Shown here: positions 1-38,176 of the stretch, piece after piece
Numbering within the stretch: position 1 is the first letter of the stretch
Layout of the letters: each line of letters opens with the position of its first letter
Made by a program: the position numbers and the translations under genes
NCBI GenBank assembly: GCA_003695565.1
Contig: RFIQ01000144.1
Coordinates: 1 to 38,176 of the forward strand
Reading direction: 5' to 3'
Length of the DNA: 38,176 bases
DNA from: Planctomycetota bacterium
GTDB taxonomy: Bacteria; Planctomycetota; Planctomycetia; Pirellulales; Pirellulaceae
The notes under the pieces: generated by a model
The model's database searches: none
Seen by the model: the letters and a program-made list of their open reading frames with translations, nothing else
What the model was told of the DNA's origin: nothing

Positions 1-20
1 CCCCCAATGCCTTTGCCAAA

Positions 21-51
21 TTGCGTCTTCGCGTCTCCGCGCCTTGGCGTT
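21..51. repeat. Short degenerate octamer tandem repeat (cttcgcgt/ctccgcgc/cttggcgt)
   Basis: ttgcgtcttcgcgtctccgcgccttggcgtt has about 3 imperfect 8-nt units, in intergenic DNA next to other palindromic elements. Confidence 0.4.
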
Positions 52-113
52 GGGCTCTGCGACCGCTTCGACCAGCCCGCTCGCTTGGAGTCGTCGCGGT
101 CGACTGCAACCCC

Positions 114-176
114 ACCTCCCCCGTGATCGATCCGAGATGACGCTGCGACGATTGCAATTCTCTTCACGGGGGAGGT
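114..176. repeat. REP-like inverted repeat with 13-bp perfect arms
   Basis: acctcccccgtga (114-126) is the exact reverse complement of tcacgggggaggt (164-176); 37-nt spacer. Confidence 0.8.
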
Positions 177-179
177 CGG

Positions 180-355
180 CGCGGGGGATCGCGCGTGCAA
201 TCACCGATTCCCCTTCGCGCCACCTTCGCCCACAGCCGGGAGGGGGCCATGAGAATCGCGACTGGGGCAGCGCAACTCAGATACGCGATTTCCCCATCTC
301 ATGCACCGGTCCGACTTGCATCCGGCGGATGCAAGCCACGTGGGACACCCCCGCC
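180..355 (+). repeat. Structured dispersed repeat, copy 1 (inverted homologue at about 38003-38176)
   Basis: Shares blocks with the reverse complement of the window end: gatcgcgcgtgcaatc, gattccccttcgcgcc, gccgggagggggc, tgagaatcgcg, atctcatgca, tgcatccggcggatgca, cacgtggg. Confidence 0.9.
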
Positions 356-3896: not shown

Positions 3897-5030
3897 TCAC
3901 GTGATCAAGTACAGCAAGGGGAACAGGTAGATCCAAATCAAGTCGACAAGGTGCCAGTACAAACCGACGTAATCGACGGGGCCGAAGTACTGTTCGTTGA
4001 AATGCCCCTTGACGGCTCGCACCAGCAGCCACGTCAACACCACCATCCCGCCCAAAATGTGCAGGGCGTGGACACCGGTCATGCAATAGTAAATGCTGAA
4101 GAACAACCCGGCTCCCCCCGGTTGGTCGATCTTCGTCAGCGGTGTCGCACCGGGTTTGAGAGGTGGCGAAGAGACGAGTTGCACCGTCTCCACCTCGCCA
4201 TGCCCGACTGTCTCTCCCTCGGCGAGCTCGCCACTGGTTTCACCGTGTCCGGTTTCCCCGGGAGAACCGGAATCCTGTTCGGCGTGCTCCGCGTGCTCGG
4301 AGCCTTCCTCGGTTGCCTCGTGGGAAACGTGCTCAGTACCATGTTTTTCTTTGGCGTGAGCGGCTTGTTCGGCATTCTGGAAAAGGATTCCGACCCCCAC
4401 GCCCAGGAAGTAGGCCAGCGCCGTGATCAACAGGGGGCCCGCGATCTCAGCGGCTTGTTTGCGTTTCTGTGCCACAGCCCATCCATACCAACCGGCGAAG
4501 CCGACGACGCAAAGCGCCGGTACGATGCTCAATTTGATCAGCCAGGGCGAGATGCCCTCGTGATGCTGGTTGGCCATGATGAATTGGGGCACGTAGCTGC
4601 CGGCAGGAAGCAGACCGATATCCCATTTGTGGGTGTACTCGACCGCCTTGACTCCCAAGAAGATCGACGCGCAGGCCAGCGTCAGCGTTAGGCACAGGAC
4701 CAGACCGTTGCGTTGATTCAACTGGGCGCAGCGCACGCCCCATGCCATGGTCAAGCTGCTGAACAGCAGCACCACCGTGTTGAAGGCTCCCAGGTTCTCG
4801 TTCAAGAACTGGCTGGCGAACGTCCACACCTCGGGGTGCAAACTGCGGTAGAGCGCATAAGCGCAAAACATACCGCTGAAGAACAGCACCTCGGTAACCA
4901 GGAACATCCACATGCCGAATTTTCCGGCATCATATTGCTGTTCCGGGTCGTCAAAATGGTGCGCCAGAAACGGAGGGTGGTCGTGCTCACCATGTCCGTG
5001 AGCGTCATCGTGTGCCGAGTCGTGTGACAT
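3897..5030 (-). CDS. ctaE: Cytochrome c oxidase subunit III with a large internal insertion
   Basis: GMWMFLVTEVLFF, NTVVLLFSSLTM, TGVHALH and GLYWHLVDLIWIYLFPLLY motifs. Confidence 0.92.
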   Translation of the reverse strand: MSHDSAHDDAHGHGEHDHPPFLAHHFDDPEQQYDAGKFGMWMFLVTEVLFFSGMFCAYALYRSLHPEVWTFASQFLNENLGAFNTVVLLFSSLTMAWGVRCAQLNQRNGLVLCLTLTLACASIFLGVKAVEYTHKWDIGLLPAGSYVPQFIMANQHHEGISPWLIKLSIVPALCVVGFAGWYGWAVAQKRKQAAEIAGPLLITALAYFLGVGVGILFQNAEQAAHAKEKHGTEHVSHEATEEGSEHAEHAEQDSGSPGETGHGETSGELAEGETVGHGEVETVQLVSSPPLKPGATPLTKIDQPGGAGLFFSIYYCMTGVHALHILGGMVVLTWLLVRAVKGHFNEQYFGPVDYVGLYWHLVDLIWIYLFPLLYLIT

Positions 5031-5044
5031 GAATCGCGCTCTAT

Positions 5045-6754
5045 TTAGTTGGTAGCAGGTTTGGATTCGACTTCATCCACGCGGGGTGCATCCGATTCGG
5101 TAGGATGCACATACTCCCATCCCTTGTCGTCGCCGCGGAAGTGCAGCGGCGTATAGTCGTAGGGCTCATTCACTCGCGGAGGCGTCTTGAAGTTGTAATA
5201 CGGAGGCGGCGATGCACACTGCCATTCCAATGTCGCTCCGCCCCAGGGGTTCGGCGGCGCCTTGCGACCACGAAACAGAGAGTGCAGCAAAACGCCCAAG
5301 GCGATAAACAATCCAATGCCCAAGACAAACGCCCCCACGGACGACATCTGGTGAAGTTCCTGGAAATCTTCCACGTAGCGAGCATACCGACGAGGCATCC
5401 CACGGCTGCCCATCACGAACTGGGGCAGGAACGTCAGATTAAACCCAACAAAGACGATCAAACAGGAGATCTTGCCCCACGTCTCGTTGAACATCTTGCC
5501 GGTCATCTTCGGCCACCAGTGGAAGATCCCACCCAGGAAGCCGACCAGCGTCCCACCGACCATCACGTAGTGGAAGTGAGCCACGACGAAATAGGTGTCG
5601 TGCAACATGCGATCGGTGGACAATGCTCCCAGCCACAGACCGGTCAGTCCGCCGATGGTGAACAGGAAGATGAACGACAGGGCATACAGCATCACCGTGT
5701 TCAGCTTGACCGTCCCCTGGTACATCGTGGCCAACCAGTTGAACACCTTGATGGCCGAGGGGATCGAGACGGAGAACGTCAAGGCGCTGAAGATGATCGT
5801 CGTAACGTTGGCCATGCCCGCAGTAAACATGTGGTGTCCCCACACCAGGAAACCGAATAGGGCGATGGCAATCGAGCTGTACGCAATGAAACGATAACCG
5901 AAAATCGATTTGTGGGAGTGGACGCTCATCAACTCCGAGATAATGCCCATCCCCGGCAGAATCATGATGTACACGGCCGGGTGGGAATAGAACCAGAAAA
6001 AGTGCTGGTAGGTCACCGGATCGCCATTGTAGGCCGGATCGAAGATCCCGATATGCAGTACCCGTTCAGCAGCCAGCAACAGAACGGTGATCCCCAGCAC
6101 GGGCGTGGCCAGCACCTGAATGATCGACGTGGCATAAGTCGCCCACAGGAACAAGGGCATCTTGAACCAGGACATGCCCGGCGGGCGCATCGTGTTGATC
6201 GTCACGATGAAGTTCAACCCGGTAAAGATGGAGCTGAATCCCAAAACAAAAACACCCAACGTGGCCGCCACCACGGGTCCCTGCGTGGTGGTGCTGTAGG
6301 GCGTGTAGAACGTCCATCCCGTGTCCAAACCGGTCGCCAGCATGGCCGTCAGGAAGAAAATAGCGCCGACCACCCACAAGTAAAAGCTGCACAGGTTCAA
6401 TCGCGGGAAGGCGACGTCCTTGGCACCCAACATGATAGGCACCAAAAAGTTACCGAGTGCGGCTGGAACGCTGGGAATGATAAACAGAAACACCATGATG
6501 GCCCCGTGCAGGGTGAACACCTGGTTGTACTGCTGATTGGAGAGGAACATCTTGGTAGGGGTCATCAATTCGGCACGCAGCACCAACGCCAAAATGCCTG
6601 CCAAACCGAATGCCGACATGACGCCTACCAAGTACATCAACCCGATGCGCTTGTGGTCCAGCGTCAGTGCCCAGCTCAGGAATCCGCGGCTGTTGACCAG
6701 GAAATTGTCTGAGTCCGGTTGCGAATAGGACGGGCTAGTAGCTACCGCGCTCAT
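5045..6754 (-). CDS. ctaD: Cytochrome c oxidase subunit I, type A2 heme-copper oxidase
   Basis: [26 protein letters not shown] (A2 YS motif), VWGHHMF, AHFHY, GMPRRY. Confidence 0.97.
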
Positions 6755-6908
6755 CGCTCATTACCTCGTATTGAATCCAAATAACTTGGTGAAATTCGTC
6801 TTCCATGCGGGCACTACAAAAGCGAGTGCCGCAGGGTTCGGTTGCGGACAGCCACACCGGTTATCCACCTTGGCCGCTGCCCCGTTCTCGCCTGGAAACC
6901 GGCGGCAG

Positions 6909-8117
6909 CTAATTTGCCGTCGCGGTTTCCGTTGGGCCGTTCTCGGAGCCGTCGGGCGGGGTCGACTCCGTTGCGGAGGCCGCATCGGATGGTTCATCCG
7001 GGGCCGCCGCTCCGTCTTCAGCAGGCGCCGCACCTCCGTCCGACTCCCCTGCATCCGATTCTTCCGTCCAATATCCCAAGGCCTTTGCTTCGTCCTCGGT
7101 CAGATCGCCATCTTTCACCGCATCGATCAAGGCCGGATTGTCCTTCAAGGCCTTAAGAAAAGCGATGATCGCATCCAGCTCCTCATTCTTCAGCTTGCCC
7201 TGGAAGGATGGCATTTGCGATGCGTTTTGGTACCCTTCACGCGCTTTTCTTTGCGGCTCCAACACCGATTCACGGACGTAATTCTCATCAAACACAACCG
7301 ACTCACCGTCGGCCGTTTTCAAAGTTTCCCCAAACGTGCCGGCTAGGCTTGGCCCCACAACCCGCTTGCCCGGTTCCACCGCATGACACGACTTGCAACC
7401 CAACCGCGAGTACAGCCAGTAACCATGCGCCACCGGGTTGCGTGGAGGTTGAGCCGCTTTGGCCAGCCAGGCTTCGTATCCAGCCTGATCATGAACCACT
7501 ACTCCCTTGCGCTTGATCATCTCACTGTGTTGATCCCCGCAATACTCAGCACAGAACAGATCGTACTCGCCCCGCAGGATCGGGCGGACCCAATAGGTGG
7601 TAACCCGACCAGGAACGACGTCCTGTTTGGCCCGAAAAGCGGGAACGTAAAAGGAGTGCAACACGTCCTCCGATCGCATTAACAACCGGATGTTCTTATC
7701 GACCGGTACGTGCAGTGTGTCGGCGATCGCCCCGTTGGGATACTGGAAGGACCAATCCCATTTGCGAGCGGTTACGTTGATGTCGATGGTGTCGGTGGGT
7801 GGGGTGACCATATCGATGTACCCATACACGCCACGGGCGAAGATCCAGATTACGATCAACGTCGGAATGACCGTCCAGGTAATCTCCAAGGCATTGTTGT
7901 GCAAAGGGCGCGAGTCACCTTGGTAACCCGGTCGGGCGCGGAACTTGATCGCGAAATACACCATGGCAATCACGATCAACGCGAAGAAAAACAACGAAAT
8001 CCACAAGATATACAAGAAGAACGCATCGGTCTCCTCCGCGAACGTGGACGCCCGCGGCGGGAAGAAAAAGGTCGTGTTCTTGTCAGCCAACAGGGCTGGG
8101 AAGTTACTTGCCAACAT
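6909..8117 (-). CDS. ctaC: Cytochrome c oxidase subunit II with fused C-terminal cytochrome c (caa3)
   Basis: LEITWTVIP, DVLHSF, CuA motif CAEYCGDQHSEM, heme motif CKSCH...MP; start at ATG 8117 overlaps the sco stop codon. Confidence 0.93.
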   Translation of the reverse strand: MLASNFPALLADKNTTFFFPPRASTFAEETDAFFLYILWISLFFFALIVIAMVYFAIKFRARPGYQGDSRPLHNNALEITWTVIPTLIVIWIFARGVYGYIDMVTPPTDTIDINVTARKWDWSFQYPNGAIADTLHVPVDKNIRLLMRSEDVLHSFYVPAFRAKQDVVPGRVTTYWVRPILRGEYDLFCAEYCGDQHSEMIKRKGVVVHDQAGYEAWLAKAAQPPRNPVAHGYWLYSRLGCKSCHAVEPGKRVVGPSLAGTFGETLKTADGESVVFDENYVRESVLEPQRKAREGYQNASQMPSFQGKLKNEELDAIIAFLKALKDNPALIDAVKDGDLTEDEAKALGYWTEESDAGESDGGAAPAEDGAAAPDEPSDAASATESTPPDGSENGPTETATAN

Positions 8118-9114
8118 CGCTCTCACCCGGGACACCTGGTCCTGAAATAGATACGGAATCCGCTTGAGTTGAATTGTATGCACCATCGGCCGGTCCGCCA
8201 TGGCCATCATCATCGACGTGCCCGTTTGCCGCAGCATCCCTCTCCGCCGCAAGCCCCTGACCATCGACATCCGGACGTCGACGACCGGCAAACCAGAAAG
8301 GCGCGGTGGCCCCCAATAGCAACAAGCAAAACGCAAATCCCCCGAAGGCCATGATCCGACGGGCACTGGCCGTGTATCGATTGGCATCGGGATCGTAGTA
8401 GTAGCACAGTTGTATAAAGGCATCGGCCAATCCGCCGATCGTCAGCTTGCCCTCGGACGCTTCCGATACCGCCATGCGAAACTGATCGGGCTCCACGCCC
8501 AGCGACACCAGACAGCGGCAAATCCGCCCATCCTGGCTCAGAAAATAGGTGGCTGCAGGATGGTTGTACCGCCGATTGGCCTGGTCGTAACGAAACCGGA
8601 ACCCTACGGCATCGGCCAGGCGCTGGATATTCTGGTACCGCCCGGTCAGGAAATGCCAGCTTTCTCCCGCATCCCGTCCCAACAGGCCCATGTATTTGGC
8701 TTTGGTCCGCAAGGCCTTATCGGTCGTCTCCGTCGGATCGATGCTGACGGTCACGATTTCGAATCTGGCACCCAACCAATCGTCCGGCAGCTCGCGTAGC
8801 GTGCCGACCAGATTGTCCAATTGGGCGATGCACAGCCCCGGACAATCCGAATAGTTCAAAGTCAAGATGACCGGCTTGCCCCGTTTGAAAAACGTTCCCA
8901 ATGAAACTTGATTGCCGCGCTCATCGGTGAAAACCAGATCCAAGGGCACGAACTCGCCCACCCGATCGACGACGGTGACTCCTTGCGCATTGGCTGGCAA
9001 TTCGTCCTTCAGCAACTGCGCACGGGCTACGGAGCACCAGGCGGTACCGCCCAGCAACGCCAGCCCCATGGCGCAAATCCGAAGTTGATGAAGAATTCCA
9101 ATCACTATTCTCAA
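8104..9114 (-). CDS. sco: SCO/SenC family copper chaperone
   Basis: YSDCPGLC (CxxxC), VSIDP, WHFLTG, YNHPA and a C-terminal TM helix; lies between the act and cox genes. Confidence 0.9.
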   Translation of the reverse strand: MRIVIGILHQLRICAMGLALLGGTAWCSVARAQLLKDELPANAQGVTVVDRVGEFVPLDLVFTDERGNQVSLGTFFKRGKPVILTLNYSDCPGLCIAQLDNLVGTLRELPDDWLGARFEIVTVSIDPTETTDKALRTKAKYMGLLGRDAGESWHFLTGRYQNIQRLADAVGFRFRYDQANRRYNHPAATYFLSQDGRICRCLVSLGVEPDQFRMAVSEASEGKLTIGGLADAFIQLCYYYDPDANRYTASARRIMAFGGFAFCLLLLGATAPFWFAGRRRPDVDGQGLAAERDAAANGHVDDDGHGGPADGAYNSTQADSVSISGPGVPGESDVGK

Positions 9115-14268: not shown

Positions 14269-17200
14269 TCAGTGCTCGGCGGCCGTTCCCTCCGCACCAG
14301 CATGATCACTGTCGCCGTGGGGGGCGGCCGACGCGCCGGGCTGATGGCCGTCGCCGTTGGCATGGTGATCGCCGTGACCGCCATGCCCGTGCATGAATTC
14401 CTGGGCTTCCTTACGCTGCTCCACGGTACGCAATCGCGGATGTGGATTCCGCACACGAGCCAAGTACAGCGTCCGGGGTTTGATGTTCAACTCGGCCAAC
14501 ATCGCGTACGCGCGGGGATCCTCTTGCAACCGGGCCACACGCGTCGATCGGTCCTTAATGTCCCCGAACACGATGGCCTGGGTCGGGCAGGCTGTCTGGC
14601 AGGCCGATTGGACTTCGCCGTCCTCGATCCGCCGCCCTTCCCGCCGCGCGTCGATCTTGCCATTCTGAACGCGCTGGATGCAGTACGTGCACTTCTCCAT
14701 CACACCACGGCCCCGCACGGTGACCTCCGGGTTGAGCACCAATTGCTGCAGCTTGCGGTTGGCGGTTTCCATCTCATCCCGCCGCTCCCAGCCATAAAAA
14801 TACCCGTACTCGGTGTTGTAATTGAAGTAATTGAACCGACGGACTTTGTACGGACAGTTGTTGGCACAATACCGAGTCCCAATGCATCGGTTGTAGGCCA
14901 TGGCATTGATGCCTTCCTCGGTGTGCACCGTCGCCGCCACCGGGCAAACCTGCTCACAGGGAGCAGTCTCGCAATGAGCACACGCCACCGGCTGGTTAAC
15001 CATTTGCGGTGCATCCACACTTCCCCGGAAGTAACGGTCGACTCGAATCCAATGCATCTCACGACCGCGGCTGACCTGTTCCTTGCCCACCACCGGGATG
15101 TTGTTCTCGGCCTGACAAGCGACGACACAAGCATTGCAGCCAGTGCACTTATTCAAGTCGATGGTCATGCCCCACTGGTACGGAACCGTCTCGTCCCGCT
15201 CGAACTTCTCGATCGGCTCCTCCCACAACGACTCCAACCGAGGGTGATGCGTCCCGAGCGCTTCGACGAAGTCCTTACCTCCCTCTGCAATCTGCTCGGC
15301 GGTTCCCTCGCGAACCAGGATGCCAGCCCGCTCCTTGGTCACCTCCAAACCGCGTTTGTCGATGCTGAAGTGATCCTGCGTGGTCGCCAGCTTGTAGGGA
15401 ATCGATGTCGCCCGCGCCTCGACATCGGTCAGTACGTACTTGTTGGCCAGCGTGCGGAGTGGCGACACGTCTGTGCCGACCACCACCTCGGCGTCACTCT
15501 TGACCGCTTCGTCGCGGCACACGCGTCCATACCCCAGATGCACGGCGATCGACCCGAAGGCCTGCCCAGGCATCACGAACACCGGCAACTCCAACCGCTG
15601 TCCGCCATGAGACAAGGCTACGATTTCGTTTTGCGCCAACCCCAATCGACTGGCCGTTTGCGGCCCGACGATGGCCGCATTATCCCAAGTCAGCTTGGTC
15701 ATCGCCTGGGGCAATTCCTGCAGCCATACATTCTTGGCGAAGCGTCCGTCGTAAACCGCGTCGCTGGGGACGAACACCAACTCCAATTGCCCATTCTCCA
15801 GCGACTCGACATCGAGTGTACCGACTGGCTTCTCATCGCCGATCTGCAACTCTCCACTGATGGGCGATCTACTGGCACCAGCCAGGAAACCGTTGTGCAA
15901 CGTTTCGCGCCAGACCCGGGAGGGCAGGGCCCCTTGAATCCCATTGGCTGTGGCCCGCACCACCTCCTCACCCGAAACCGGATTCGCCATCAAGGCGGTC
16001 AGAACCTCGGGAACGGTCTTGCCGCCCAACAACGGCAGGATTTGCGGCTGGCAGACCCCGTACGACCCGTCGACACCCAACACATCCCCCCAACTTTCCA
16101 GAGGATGAGCCAGCGGAATCGACCAGGCGCAGTGAGCGGCCGTTTCGTCATCGAATTCGGCACAATAGACGACATGCTCCAGCCGTTGCAGCGCCTCCCC
16201 CAGCTTGACATCGCCGGGAGCGGCGTAGACGGGGTTGTCCCCCAGAATCCACACCGTATCGACCTGGCCGCCATCGATCGCTTCGACGAGCTGCCCCAGG
16301 CCGATAGGATCCACGCCTGGAATGGCCGAACGACTGGGCATCAACTGAACCGTGTGGCCGATATTGCCCAATTTCTGATTCAACCGCAGAGCCGTCGTTT
16401 GCACATCGACCGGCAGATGACTGCCGACCGACACCAGGCTCGCCCCCTGGTTGGCAACCAGGTCCTCGGCCACCGCCTCGATGAAGCGCTCGACCTGTTG
16501 GGCCGGACTGATCTGGTCGAAGGCGGGTTCGTCGCCGGCCCCCGCCGGAGCCGCACCACCGGCCAACAACTCGTCGACACGCTGCTCGATCCGCACCAAC
16601 AAAGCCCCCATGTGGCTGGATCGCACCGGCACGCGGGTATCCGCCGTCGCTCCGGTGACCGAGTACCGCGACTCGGCCGCATACAGTCGATTCATGCCGG
16701 GACCGGCCGCAGCGCGGCCCTTGGAGAACTGCCGCGAGTACAGCACCATATTGGGATCATTGCCCAACAAATCACAATCCAGACAACAAATAACTTTGGC
16801 CGCCGACAAATCGTACAGCAACTCGGCAGGCTGCCCCGCGGCCTTCGCACAGGCCTCCCGCTGCGACTCGTCGTCGACCGACGCGTACTGAGCAACCCGA
16901 GCCTGGGGCAACTGGCGAACCACCTCGGCCACCAATCGGTTGACCGACGGCGACAGAGACGGAGCCATCAAGATCGCCAACGACTTACCGCCACCCTCCA
17001 TCAACTCCTTCCAATGCTGGCTCGCATAGGCAACAAAATCGTCCCATGCCCCCGTCGTAGCCTCCCCATCCCGCCGGCGAACGATGCGATCCAACCGATC
17101 CGGGTCGTACAGCCCCAACACACAAGCCTGCGAAAACACATCCGTTCCAGCACTGGCAAACCGCTGATTTCCATCGGACAGATCATTGGGCTCGGAAGCC

Positions 17201-17607
17201 TTCATCACCGGATGATCGGGATTGCCCTCGACTTTGATCGGCCGACCATCGCGGTTGGTCACCAACAAGTGCACGGCACGACCAGCCAATTCAAAATTGG
17301 TCGCGTAGCGCTTGGGCACCCCAGCCACGGTATTCTCAGGCCGAATGACGAACGGAGCCAGCTCGACCGGCCCGTAGCGACACCCCGCTGCGCCACTCAG
17401 TGCGATCGAGGCGCTCATCAACTGCAACCAGCGACGCCGCGACACGCCCTCGGGAAACTCCGACGCAGCCACCGGGAATTCTCGATCCAGGAACTGCTGG
17501 AACTCAGCCGATCCCTCCAACTCGCCCATACTCCGCCAGTAACCATCACTGGCAGCAGGAGATTCGACTTGAGCCTCAGCGCCCGACTTGCTTGGATTCG
17601 ATTGCAT
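14269..17607 (-). CDS. actB: ACIII ActB: Tat-exported molybdopterin-oxidoreductase-like fold fused to an Fe-S domain
   Basis: YWRSMGEL leader, Tat motif SRRRWLQL, AAGC lipobox, GRPIKVEGNPDHP; Fe-S motifs CTGCNACVVAC, CAHCETAPCEQVCP, CIGTRYCANNCP and CTYC...CQTACP. Confidence 0.95.
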   Translation of the reverse strand: MQSNPSKSGAEAQVESPAASDGYWRSMGELEGSAEFQQFLDREFPVAASEFPEGVSRRRWLQLMSASIALSGAAGCRYGPVELAPFVIRPENTVAGVPKRYATNFELAGRAVHLLVTNRDGRPIKVEGNPDHPVMKASEPNDLSDGNQRFASAGTDVFSQACVLGLYDPDRLDRIVRRRDGEATTGAWDDFVAYASQHWKELMEGGGKSLAILMAPSLSPSVNRLVAEVVRQLPQARVAQYASVDDESQREACAKAAGQPAELLYDLSAAKVICCLDCDLLGNDPNMVLYSRQFSKGRAAAGPGMNRLYAAESRYSVTGATADTRVPVRSSHMGALLVRIEQRVDELLAGGAAPAGAGDEPAFDQISPAQQVERFIEAVAEDLVANQGASLVSVGSHLPVDVQTTALRLNQKLGNIGHTVQLMPSRSAIPGVDPIGLGQLVEAIDGGQVDTVWILGDNPVYAAPGDVKLGEALQRLEHVVYCAEFDDETAAHCAWSIPLAHPLESWGDVLGVDGSYGVCQPQILPLLGGKTVPEVLTALMANPVSGEEVVRATANGIQGALPSRVWRETLHNGFLAGASRSPISGELQIGDEKPVGTLDVESLENGQLELVFVPSDAVYDGRFAKNVWLQELPQAMTKLTWDNAAIVGPQTASRLGLAQNEIVALSHGGQRLELPVFVMPGQAFGSIAVHLGYGRVCRDEAVKSDAEVVVGTDVSPLRTLANKYVLTDVEARATSIPYKLATTQDHFSIDKRGLEVTKERAGILVREGTAEQIAEGGKDFVEALGTHHPRLESLWEEPIEKFERDETVPYQWGMTIDLNKCTGCNACVVACQAENNIPVVGKEQVSRGREMHWIRVDRYFRGSVDAPQMVNQPVACAHCETAPCEQVCPVAATVHTEEGINAMAYNRCIGTRYCANNCPYKVRRFNYFNYNTEYGYFYGWERRDEMETANRKLQQLVLNPEVTVRGRGVMEKCTYCIQRVQNGKIDARREGRRIEDGEVQSACQTACPTQAIVFGDIKDRSTRVARLQEDPRAYAMLAELNIKPRTLYLARVRNPHPRLRTVEQRKEAQEFMHGHGGHGDHHANGDGHQPGASAAPHGDSDHAGAEGTAAEH

Positions 17608-17716
17608 GTTATCGCTTCGCTACTTATCTGAAACAGCCAAAGGCTACGTACCTGAGCACCATCAGCGGGACCGATCGGCGCCGACCACGGCACTCGCAGT
17701 GCCAGCCGGCATTGCA

Positions 17717-35963: not shown

Positions 35964-36016
35964 GACACCGAGAACCGTGGTCGGCCACTCTACCCGTCTC
36001 CCGCGAGCCGTCTTTG

Positions 36017-37858
36017 ATGCACCGATTTCGCCCCTCTTTGGAACCTCTGGAACAGCGCCGTGTCCTGGCATCGATTGCTGGGACGGTATCGATCGATCTG
36101 GATGGCAACCATCATCGGGATGACACCGATGCCCCGGTAGTCGGAGCGCTGGTGTGGGTAGATCAAAACCGCAATGGGCGATTCGACGTCGGCGAGCCGT
36201 CCGATTACAGCGATCGTAATGGCGACTACCTGCTGAACGACATCGCCCCTGGTGAAGCTTGGGTCCGAGCCGCCATGCCGGTGGGACTGATTCAAACGTT
36301 CCCTTACGAACATGTGGCCATGCAGTACGATTCTGCAACCGACAACTTCCGGCTGGCCAGGATCGATTCGGTGACGGGCGAAGTCACAGGGTTGGGAGAC
36401 GCCGGCGGAAGCAACCGATTCGGATTGATCAAGACCGTCGACGGCGAATACTACGCCACCGATTTTCGGGACGACACCCTGCACAAGATCGACCCCCTGA
36501 CCGGACAGCAGACGCTCATCGGTACATTCGATCAACAAGTCGTCGCCGGCCTGGCATACGATCCGTTGATGGATGAAATCTACACGCTGGCGCGGCCCAA
36601 CGACGATGGCGATCCAGTGGCGGCGTTGCGATTGTTCAAAGTCGACCGGACGTCGGCGGCCCTGACACCGGTTTCAGACATTCAACCGAGCATCGACGGG
36701 ATCGAGTTCACCACATCAATGGCGTTCGACTGGGTGAATCGGCAAGTCGTGTTGTTCGACAACGGCACCGATACGGCCTACGCGTACGACCTGCAAGGAG
36801 AAATACGGCAACTCGGCACCTTCGCGCCGCAGGACGGCTTTTTTAACCTCGTCTTCGACGGCTTTCGCTTCTTGGCACATCGTACGGTGCAGGGCAACAG
36901 CGTGCTGTTCGAAGTCGATCCTGTCGCCGGTACCTTGACGCAACTTGTTTCCTTGAATGCGCCGCTGAACGTGAATTCGGCCGACCGGCTGGCAACCAAC
37001 GAGCCGCAGCGGGTAGCGGTACCCGACCCGCAATCGGAAACTGCTGCAATCGACTTTCTCGCCACCAAACTGGTAATCGACAGCGCGCAGCTCAACGTGC
37101 AATCCGATCAGATGCACCTTGTTGTTCCATCCATGCAACTGGACACGAGCTCCAGTCTGGGAGACGCGTCGACCGAAGCGCGGTTTTGTGTGGCCGGGGC
37201 GAGCCATGTCGACCTGCAACTTTCCGACACCTCCACCCGGAGCATGCAAGTCGCGTTGGGCGACGACCCGGACCGCCTTTCACTCCGACAGACTGCCTTT
37301 GCCGATTGGCCTCAATTGAACATCGACCTGGGGCCTGGACATGACGGCCTGCTGATCGACGCTGCGGAAACTCTCTCTTTGCCGGGCATTGCCAATCGGC
37401 TCAGCGGCATCGATGAGATCCAGCTAGTCGGACCGCAAGTGACGACCATCGAGATCGATGAGTCCGCCGTGGCAGCCATTTCCGATGCCCAAGCCCTGAC
37501 CGTGCGATTGGGGGCTGAGGACCACTTGCAACTGGGCGACGGTCAGTGGGCGGCTCGGGGCATTGAGCTGCGAGACAACCAACGTCTGCACGCGATTGCT
37601 ACCGACCAGGTGATGCTCTCGGTGCGCAATGGCACGCCTTGGCACAATCCGCTGGAGCGATTTGACGTGAATTCGGATGGATCCATCACACCGTTGGACG
37701 CCCTGCTAATTATCAACATGATCAATCGCACCTCGCCATCGGCCCTGGACGAATCCGTTTCCGAATTCCTCACTGCGCCTTACATCGACACCAACGGCGA
37801 CAACGCTCTCTCCCCCATCGACGTACTCCTTGTCGTTAACCACCTCAATCGCACTTAA
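36017..37858 (+). CDS. Planctomycete extracellular protein with SdrD-B-like, beta-propeller-like and C-terminal dockerin type I domains
   Basis: N-terminal LEPLEQRRVLA; WVDQNRNGRFDVGEP...DRNGDYLL; LHKIDPLTG and LFEVDPVAG blade repeats; DVNSDGSITPLDALLIIN and DTNGDNALSPIDVLLVVN. Confidence 0.88.
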   Translation: MHRFRPSLEPLEQRRVLASIAGTVSIDLDGNHHRDDTDAPVVGALVWVDQNRNGRFDVGEPSDYSDRNGDYLLNDIAPGEAWVRAAMPVGLIQTFPYEHVAMQYDSATDNFRLARIDSVTGEVTGLGDAGGSNRFGLIKTVDGEYYATDFRDDTLHKIDPLTGQQTLIGTFDQQVVAGLAYDPLMDEIYTLARPNDDGDPVAALRLFKVDRTSAALTPVSDIQPSIDGIEFTTSMAFDWVNRQVVLFDNGTDTAYAYDLQGEIRQLGTFAPQDGFFNLVFDGFRFLAHRTVQGNSVLFEVDPVAGTLTQLVSLNAPLNVNSADRLATNEPQRVAVPDPQSETAAIDFLATKLVIDSAQLNVQSDQMHLVVPSMQLDTSSSLGDASTEARFCVAGASHVDLQLSDTSTRSMQVALGDDPDRLSLRQTAFADWPQLNIDLGPGHDGLLIDAAETLSLPGIANRLSGIDEIQLVGPQVTTIEIDESAVAAISDAQALTVRLGAEDHLQLGDGQWAARGIELRDNQRLHAIATDQVMLSVRNGTPWHNPLERFDVNSDGSITPLDALLIINMINRTSPSALDESVSEFLTAPYIDTNGDNALSPIDVLLVVNHLNRT

Positions 37859-37991: not shown

Positions 37992-38012
37992 GTCCCTTTC
38001 GGCGAAAGGGAC
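37992..38012. repeat. Perfect hairpin GTCCCTTTC-GGC-GAAAGGGAC (REP-like)
   Basis: 9-bp perfect stem with a 3-nt loop, adjoining repeat copy 2. Confidence 0.7.
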
Positions 38013-38176
38013 CCACGTGCCCTGCATCCGCCGGATGCAGGTCTGGCAATTGCATGAGATCGGGCAGTCCCATTTGCCATACGTATCCGAATCCGCGATT
38101 CTCAAGAGCCCCCTCCCGGCGGCGGCGTGAAGGAGGCGCGAAGGGGAATCAGCGATTGCACGCGCGATCTCCCGCG
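38003..38176 (-). repeat. Structured dispersed repeat, copy 2 (inverted relative to 180-355; runs to the window end)
   Basis: The reverse complement matches 180-227 at 44 of 48 nt, plus the further conserved blocks listed for copy 1. Confidence 0.9.

What the first reader, a model, noticed from the sequence alone, without database searches (positions are those of the whole stretch)
180..355. Structured non-coding element with conserved blocks around a variable 33-35 nt core, present as inverted copies at both window ends
Seen: 180-355 and the reverse complement of about 38003-38176 are homologous. Block A is 48 nt with 4 mismatches and block B is gccgggagggggc..tgagaatcgcg. Next comes an unrelated core of similar length (actggggcagcgcaactcagatacgcgatttcccc, 35 nt, versus gattcggatacgtatggcaaatgggactgcccg, 33 nt). 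Block C is atctcatgca-N11-tgcatccggcggatgca-N3-cacgtggg. The block C hairpin shows a compensatory change, t-TGCATCC/GGATGCA-a versus c-TGCATCC/GGATGCA-g. In copy 1 the core is closed by aatcgcg/cgcgatt and catgaga/tctcatg pairings. Inference: structure rather than coding is being conserved. It could be a non-autonomous mobile element (MITE/REPIN composite) or an undescribed ncRNA family. A constant scaffold around a variable core is reminiscent of guide or bridge RNAs, but no partner enzyme is in the window.
Basis: partly seen in the sequence, partly recalled or inferred. Interest (0 to 1): 0.8.

Follow-up and report, generated by a model that had tools for sequence, protein, structure and literature searches.

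The report
Genome-wide mosaic of two repeat types
The two copies belong to a decayed repeat family scattered through this one bacterial genome, made of a short palindromic hairpin joined to a long-looped likely relative of a known triple-helix-type DNA repeat, and its "variable core" is the fastest-diverging part of a shared sequence, so it is unlikely to be a guide RNA.

Summary
The two copies are real, but they are 2 of 46 genome-wide matches to a ~232-nt unit (window 111-345). The window is a whole contig, and its ends fall inside these repeats. The cores are homologous across 15 copies (mean 54% identity, one pair 97%), not unique spacers. Block C is a GTGG/GTGC-tagged REP-type hairpin (29 copies here, 0 in 40 relatives). 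Its compensatory pair is real but is a single sub-family split. The proposed core-closing helix is only 65% paired. Blocks A and B lie inside a pyrimidine–purine–mirror-purine scaffold with the order of BoxC/intrastrand-triplex repeats, but with 45- and 63-nt loops. A second family here shares the scaffold with unrelated loops. Short scaffolds of this kind bracket DUF559 nuclease genes in other genomes; this scan had noted that pairing before on other DNA. An independent profile did not separate the long form from noise. No Rfam hit was found, and no IS110, TnpB, reverse transcriptase or DUF559 in this 85%-complete assembly. One RAYT is present, with a different REP. Verdict: a decayed, BIME-like composite DNA repeat, a new variant of known kinds.

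The parts
4..105 (+).
115..122 (+). Pyrimidine tract of the triplex-type scaffold; 5' arm of the long hairpin
123..167 (+). 45-nt expanded first loop (3-6 nt in the published TM motif)
168..175 (+). First purine tract, the exact reverse complement of 115-122
176..238 (+).
239..246 (+).
248..314 (+). Spacer K between scaffold and REP.
315..339 (-).
38042..38176 (-). Copy 2: truncated scaffold (second loop and second purine tract at 38116-38109) and spacer K with the 33-nt core (38093-38061); cut by the contig end
38017..38041 (+). Copy 2 module C: GTGC tag and 9-bp hairpin (the C-G sub-family)
37992..38016 (-). REP-type module D (GTGG tag plus hairpin), abutting module C tag to tag; 33 copies within 2 mismatches genome-wide

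Best explanation
This is one of dozens of diverged copies of a genome-specific composite repeat, a REP-type hairpin plus a 67-nt spacer plus a long-looped scaffold with the tract order of BoxC/triplex repeats, likely spread and reshuffled as DNA by nicking at its hairpins and recombination between copies, and likely now mostly decaying. Shown: copy number, module order (commonly D-F-scaffold-K-C, then D and a second scaffold family in inverted orientation), graded divergence, the hairpins, the mirror-purine geometry, and short scaffolds of this kind bracketing DUF559 genes in other genomes. Inferred: the scaffold descends from a DUF559-flanking repeat whose loops gained sequence; a RAYT acting on the GTGG hairpins, a DUF559-type nuclease acting on the scaffold, or both seeded the copies; and the core varies most because it is the least constrained stretch.
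For: 46 matches to the unit and 48 module clusters with permuted, truncated and duplicated modules. The unit was found in 0 of 40 relatives and module C in 0 of 40 against 29 here; species-restricted families are described for REPs (PMC3733652, section 5 read). Module C fits the REP format of tag plus 6-9-bp stem, and GTGG tags and tag-inside dimers 1-2 bp apart are described. A bona fide RAYT is in the genome (NF047646, 179.7 bits against a cut-off of 80). Six perfect 8-triplet pyrimidine/purine/mirror-purine arrangements occur in the genome against 0, 0, 0, 0, 1 in five shuffles; 3 belong to this family and 3 to the second. 31 specified scaffold bases match exactly in an alphaproteobacterial MAG, where the same sub-type occurs 14 times in short form and brackets a DUF559 gene in inverted orientation. 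Scaffold-type repeats lie within 350 nt of 11 of 22 DUF559 genes of relatives, against 0 of 30 Y1_Tnp genes and 0 of 2000 random windows, and within 300 nt of 22 of 25 DUF559 genes in that MAG and its relatives. DUF559-flanking copies with loops of 36-62 nt exist there too. Mismatches that break the hairpins outnumber compensatory changes.
Against: A profile built only from 13 DUF559-flanking repeats of relatives scored this family at 21-30 bits, inside the range of the reversed-genome control (top 30.4), while three short-form copies scored 42-48. The detector was retuned after a first version missed copy 1, so its hit on copy 1 is not independent. The exact sub-type flanks only 1 of 25 DUF559 genes, and its short form was in 0 of 301 genomes of the order. 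No DUF559 gene or remnant is in the assembly. The RAYT is flanked by a different REP. 8 of 23 module-C copies carry GTGC, a tag not listed in the REP passages I read. No empty site was seen. Segment lengths stay nearly constant despite heavy substitution, which plain decay does not obviously explain.
Confidence: 0.72

Rival explanations
1. A non-autonomous cassette that moves as one unit: two inverted triplex-type scaffolds (this family on one side, the second family on the other) enclose spacer-REP-REP-spacer where a DUF559 gene would normally sit, and a DUF559 nuclease mobilises it in trans.
For: In C434 the order is scaffold-K-C-D-spacer-inverted second scaffold, the same inverted geometry seen around DUF559 genes. 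Both arms have similar segment lengths (70/67, 58/63 and 43/41 nt).
Against: Only C434 shows the whole arrangement; most clusters are partial or permuted and have no common ends. No target duplication was evident by eye at five interior clusters with approximate ends. No empty site and no DUF559 in the assembly.
Confidence: 0.13
2. A conserved structured ncRNA or cis-regulatory RNA present in many copies.
For: Copy 1 folds better than shuffles on the + strand (z -2.8). 85.7% of cells pair in the named structure, reached by 11 of 500 shuffles, and the covariation score by 25 of 500.
Against: The structure was derived from one member, which inflates these figures. Two-sided changes are no more than in shuffles (123 of 500). 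The terminal scaffold hairpin has 0 of 13 pairs with a two-sided change. No Rfam match at gathering score in the window or at E<=1 over the repeat in six loci. Not found in 40 relatives.
Confidence: 0.07
3. A guide or bridge RNA whose 33-35-nt core programmes an enzyme against a target.
For: The core is the most variable segment and keeps a length of 32-35 nt.
Against: Cores are homologous and shared between loci. They have no match outside the repeats beyond 14-mers at E>=0.3 and none in IMG/VR. The closing helix is not conserved. No IS110, TnpB or RT in the assembly.
Confidence: 0.03
4. Much of the mosaic pattern is assembly chimerism in a metagenome-assembled genome with many similar repeats.
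For: 625 contigs; 31 of 48 clusters at contig ends; no run contig spans a whole cluster; 62.5% of informative site pairs fail the four-gamete test.
Against: Independent contigs of two runs show the same variant letters and module-skipping joints, and much higher summed depth over the repeat than over its flanks. Chimerism cannot create 25-45% divergence between copies.
Confidence: 0.05

Closest known systems
BoxC / PIT / TMECO intrastrand triplex motif (Holder et al. 2015, PMC4666352; parts 1, 3, 4 and 5 of 10 plus passages read)
   Same: Same order on one strand: C-rich tract, loop, complementary G-rich tract, loop, mirror G-rich tract (class II layout). Dispersed, and can occur as inverted pairs.
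   Different: Loops are 45 and 63 nt instead of 3-6 and 3, and tracts are 8 nt with a different sequence. The strict TMECO consensus has 0 matches in this genome. It is fused to REP modules. Triplex formation is untested here.
GTAG-family REPs, REP dimers and BIME-like clusters with RAYT (PMC3733652, section 5 and passages; PMC8266576, passages)
   Same: Tetranucleotide tag plus a perfect 9-bp hairpin with a 3-nt loop, sub-families with alternative complementary stem bases, tag-inside dimers, clusters reiterated with flanking DNA, a genome-restricted family, and a RAYT in the genome.
   Different: Tag is GTGG or GTGC, not GTAG. No RAYT flanked by these REPs was found. Units carry a second, non-REP repeat class and reach about 365 nt.
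DUF559 (PF04480) genes bracketed by inverted triplex-type repeats
   Same: Same scaffold layout; the exact sub-type brackets one DUF559 gene; long loops also occur there.
   Different: No nuclease gene between or beside these copies, and profile similarity to the Pirellulales-type flanks is at noise level.
CIR elements of Caulobacter and alpha-proteobacteria (as reviewed in PMC2229807, passages read; the original paper was not held)
   Same: Dispersed 100-200-bp repeat with two independent stem-loop arms.
   Different: CIRs are defined by conserved GANTC sites and conservation between species; this family is genome-specific.
IS110 bridge RNA and other guide RNAs (features recalled, not from a call)
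   Same: Only a surface likeness: a constant frame with internal segments that vary.
   Different: Variable parts are homologous and graded, no recombinase was found, and the variable parts have no target matches.

Membership tests
TMECO / BoxC triplex motif | Consensus with 9-nt tracts, a first loop of 3-6 nt and a second loop of 3 nt | tested here: not met
   0 matches in G000; loops here are 45 and 63 nt
TMECO / BoxC triplex motif | C-rich tract, complementary G-rich tract and mirror G-rich tract on one strand (class II layout) | tested here: met
   8 of 8 triplets in copy 1; 4-8 in the 11 of 18 aligned copies that could be scored; 6 perfect cases in the genome against 0-1 in shuffles
TMECO / BoxC triplex motif | Folds into a triplex in vitro | not testable with these tools
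   needs CD, NMR or DMS on the oligonucleotide
GTAG-family REP | Tetranucleotide tag directly 5' of a short hairpin (stem 6-13 bp) | tested here: met
   9-bp stem, 3-nt loop; tag GTGG in 15 and GTGC in 8 of 23 copies. GTGG is a described variant; GTGC was not in the passages read
GTAG-family REP | Many dispersed extragenic copies, often in dimers and clusters | tested here: met
   29 copies of C, 33 of D, clusters. Extragenic position was checked only for the two window copies
GTAG-family REP | Cognate RAYT gene flanked by the same REP | tested here: inconclusive
   The one RAYT found is flanked by another REP; assembly is 85% complete and breaks at repeats
DUF559-flanking repeat | Scaffold matches repeats that bracket DUF559 genes | tested here: inconclusive
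   Exact sub-type at 1 of 25 genes; independent profile at noise level
DUF559-flanking repeat | DUF559 gene present in the genome between inverted copies | tested here: inconclusive
   None at E<=0.001 and no tblastn hit better than E 0.1; incomplete assembly
MITE | Fixed ends with terminal inverted repeats and a target-site duplication | tested here: not met
   Clusters begin and end at different modules; no duplication evident by eye at five interior clusters
IS110 bridge RNA | IS110 recombinase gene associated with the element | tested here: not met
   PF01548: 0 matches in G000, control rang in 6 of 14 genomes; assembly incomplete
IS110 bridge RNA / guide RNA | Variable segment unique per locus and matching a target | tested here: not met
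Rfam families | Score at or above gathering threshold | tested here: not met

The most novel reading that the evidence does not exclude
These are cargo-carrying, non-autonomous partners of DUF559 nucleases: an intrastrand-triplex scaffold that keeps its three tracts in register while carrying 40-65-nt loops of two unrelated sequence families at near-fixed lengths, fused to REP hairpins so that two selfish-repeat systems (RAYT and DUF559) act on one element. This would extend bacterial triplex repeats far beyond the 1-6-nt loops that published searches allow and would give a testable substrate for an uncharacterised nuclease family.
Probability: 0.15. Interest if true: 0.65.

Novelty: new variant of a known kind. 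Interest (0 to 1): 0.3.

Why it matters
As found, it is a modest result: a genome-specific repeat family that fragments this assembly and is not a guide RNA. Its value is as a data point. Published triplex-motif searches cap loops at 6-10 nt (PMC4666352), so long-looped versions like this one would be missed. Two families in one genome keep the same mirror-purine frame around unrelated loops, which suggests the frame is what is recognised. If DUF559 nucleases act on that frame, the origin of BoxC-type repeats, for which that paper found no associated mobility genes, becomes directly testable.

Tried and rejected
Rfam: nothing at gathering score in the window; only a tRNA at E<=1 in six loci. 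RNAalifold on the 18-copy alignment gave almost no structure because 9 or so copies are truncated, so I counted named helices instead. Decayed coding sequence: no period-3 signal in variability (p 0.27), and 1-nt indels are common. DGR-like adenine mutagenesis: substitution rates are similar for all four bases (0.12-0.15) and no RT was found. Deep homology between the two scaffold families: spacer and loop comparisons gave z -0.9 to 1.3, not significant (one search was spoiled by a loose seed and redone). Recombination: high four-gamete incompatibility but no clear decay with distance (p 0.07), so inconclusive. One search used a faulty pattern that failed on G000 itself and was repeated. One search allowed loops too short to match G000's own long copies, so it tests only shorter forms. 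A covariance model of DUF559 flanks was dropped because the alignment misplaced the 3' arm. Expression: no RNA holder listed, which says nothing either way. Empty sites: none seen in three runs at the C434 cluster, but cover was patchy. Papers: searches for DUF559 alone (25 papers), with 'palindromic' (3), with 'repeats, flanked, mobile' (3), 'BoxC repeat triplex' (10) and 'intrastrand triplex, bacteria, endonuclease, repeat' from 2016 (4) showed no title or abstract start describing a DUF559-repeat pairing or long-looped triplex repeats (listings only). Chen and Shapiro 2003 was not held. The REP consensus figure and supplements of PMC3733652 and PMC4666352 were not seen, so modules C and D could match a listed family.

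Full report
Observation. The two stretches are homologous as described: 78% over 167 nt, with block A, the core lengths and the hairpin swap as stated. The window is the whole of contig C334 in a 625-contig, 85%-complete genome. It looks like a planctomycete, inferred from the DUF1559 gene next to copy 1; the runs that hold it are labelled hot-spring metagenome. Copy 2 is cut by the contig end and continues on C324 through an exact 94-nt overlap.

Copy number and layout. An iterated profile finds 46 matches, 11 of them covering at least 190 of 232 positions. The unit is part of larger clusters built from recurring modules: F (15 matches), the scaffold (25), spacer K (13), hairpins C and D (35 each) and a second scaffold family (12). 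They form 48 clusters, 31 within 150 nt of a contig end, while only 13% of the genome lies within 500 nt of an end. The usual order is D-F-scaffold-K-C, often followed by D, with modules dropped or repeated. Summed contig depth in run X1 is about 6-7 on the unique flank and 240 over hairpin C (not a copy number, but consistent with many copies). The unit was not found in 40 relatives, nor hairpin C (29 copies here), nor family-specific patterns in GTDB or JGI metagenomes.

The core. In a 19-copy alignment, mean pairwise identity is 82-84% in the scaffold ends, the block after the core and hairpin C, 71-75% in the loops and the block before the core, 63% in the N11 stretch and 54% in the core. 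So the core is the most variable part, but it is homologous: 68 of 105 pairs score z>3 and one pair is 97% identical. Cores match only other copies and have no match in viral collections. This is graded divergence, not a set of independent spacers.

Structure. The outer helix around the core is 82% paired, the inner one 65%. The terminal scaffold hairpin is 89% paired with no two-sided change in 13 pairs. Overall, the number of pairs with two-sided changes does not exceed shuffles (123 of 500); percent paired (11 of 500) and covariation score (25 of 500) are borderline, and the structure was drawn from one member. Rfam has no match.

What the parts are. Read on the minus strand, block C is a tag followed by a perfect 9-bp hairpin, the format of GTAG-family REPs, for which GTGG variants, complementary stem sub-families and tag-inside dimers are described (PMC3733652). 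C and D often abut tag to tag, as in copy 2. The genome has a RAYT, but it is flanked by a different REP. Blocks A and B lie in a scaffold with a pyrimidine tract (115-122), its complement (168-175) and that tract's mirror image (239-246). This is the class II layout of the BoxC/TMECO triplex motif (PMC4666352), a paper I reached through earlier notes of this scan. The strict motif is absent from the genome and the loops are far too long for it, so this is not a member by definition. The layout is still non-random: 6 perfect cases against 0-1 in shuffles. Half belong to a second family that shares the frame but not the loops.

Link to DUF559. From recall that such repeats lie near DUF559 genes, I fetched DUF559 loci from relatives (27 of 41 genomes have a match). 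I used 22 of the 30 loci, leaving out 8 weak or long-frame hits. A detector found the scaffold near 11 of 22, against 0 of 30 Y1_Tnp loci, 1 of 38 and 0 of 52 distant windows and 0 of 2000 random windows; it had been retuned after missing copy 1. By eye, related repeats lie at most of the missed loci. A GTDB scan with this element's frame gave one hit, in a Pseudorhodoplanes MAG, where the same sub-type brackets a DUF559 gene and occurs 14 times in short form. In that MAG and its relatives a slightly looser detector found the scaffold near 22 of 25 stand-alone DUF559 genes and 0 of 4 long-frame ones (29 of 30 loci used), but the exact sub-type near only 1 of 25. Against the link: a profile trained only on 13 DUF559 flanks does not lift this family above noise, the short exact form was in 0 of 301 genomes of the order, and G000 has no DUF559. 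Descent from a DUF559-flanking repeat is therefore likely but not shown.

Mechanism. Most likely these are DNA repeats seeded by hairpin-recognising enzymes and reshuffled by recombination between copies. RAYT cleavage next to tagged hairpins is established for other REPs (PMC8266576, passages). A role for DUF559 is an inference from gene neighbourhood. Four-gamete incompatibility is high (62.5% of pairs among 26 sites in 8 copies) but does not fall off clearly with distance (p 0.07), and assembly could contribute. No empty site was seen. What remains unexplained is the near-constant length of spacer and loops within and between the two families.

Verdict. The element is a new variant of known repeat kinds, with modest interest (0.3). 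The DUF559-triplex pairing is the more interesting thread. It was not in the papers I searched, but this scan had noted it on other DNA (27 notes), and this locus has no such gene.

Noticed in passing
G000 contigs C204, C242, C248, C260, C335, C381, C434 (L005, about 1815-1957), C550, C558, C599: Second repeat family with the same triplex-type frame but unrelated loops (about 63 and 41 nt) and a 67-nt spacer after hairpin D; lies inverted to the first family in C434.
   Followed up: yes
L001:1465-2022 (G000:C446:2150-2707): Intact RAYT (NF047646) flanked by its own GTAG REPs, of which 6 exact 16-mers occur in the genome; it follows an unidentified reading frame that ends at the upstream REP.
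   Followed up: partly
L002 (G000:C150:1858-1971 and on): Weak Y1_Tnp match (below cut-off) in a frame of at least 335 codons with no obvious flanking REP.
   Followed up: no
G000 C292:10650-10697, C204:1-63, C566:81-126: Three short-form triplex-type repeats that closely match DUF559-flanking repeats of relatives (42-48 bits), although the assembly has no DUF559 gene.
   Followed up: partly
G000 genome-wide: At least eight further short hairpin repeat families, several with GTAG or GTGG tags; the commonest 16-mer occurs 36 times.
   Followed up: no
L038 (G022:C1:797420-800737): Two DUF559 genes in tandem about 640 nt apart, each preceded by the same repeat-rich stretch.
   Followed up: no
L027 (G025:C1:18378-18698) and L123 (G347): Strong DUF559 matches inside long open frames (439 and 305 codons); L027 is surrounded by at least six scaffold copies.
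   Followed up: no
L026, L032, L034, L103: DUF559-flanking repeats with loops expanded to 36-62 nt, showing that long loops occur beside intact genes.
   Followed up: partly
window 3897-8423 (-): Cytochrome c oxidase cluster (COX2 fused to a cytochrome c domain, COX1, COX3 with two matched stretches).
   Followed up: no
window 14269-17631: Long open frames on both strands over the same 3.3 kb (1112 and 1119 codons); probably a high-GC shadow frame.
   Followed up: no
window 36014-37858 (+): 614-codon protein ending in a dockerin type I domain, directly upstream of the copy 2 cluster.
   Followed up: no
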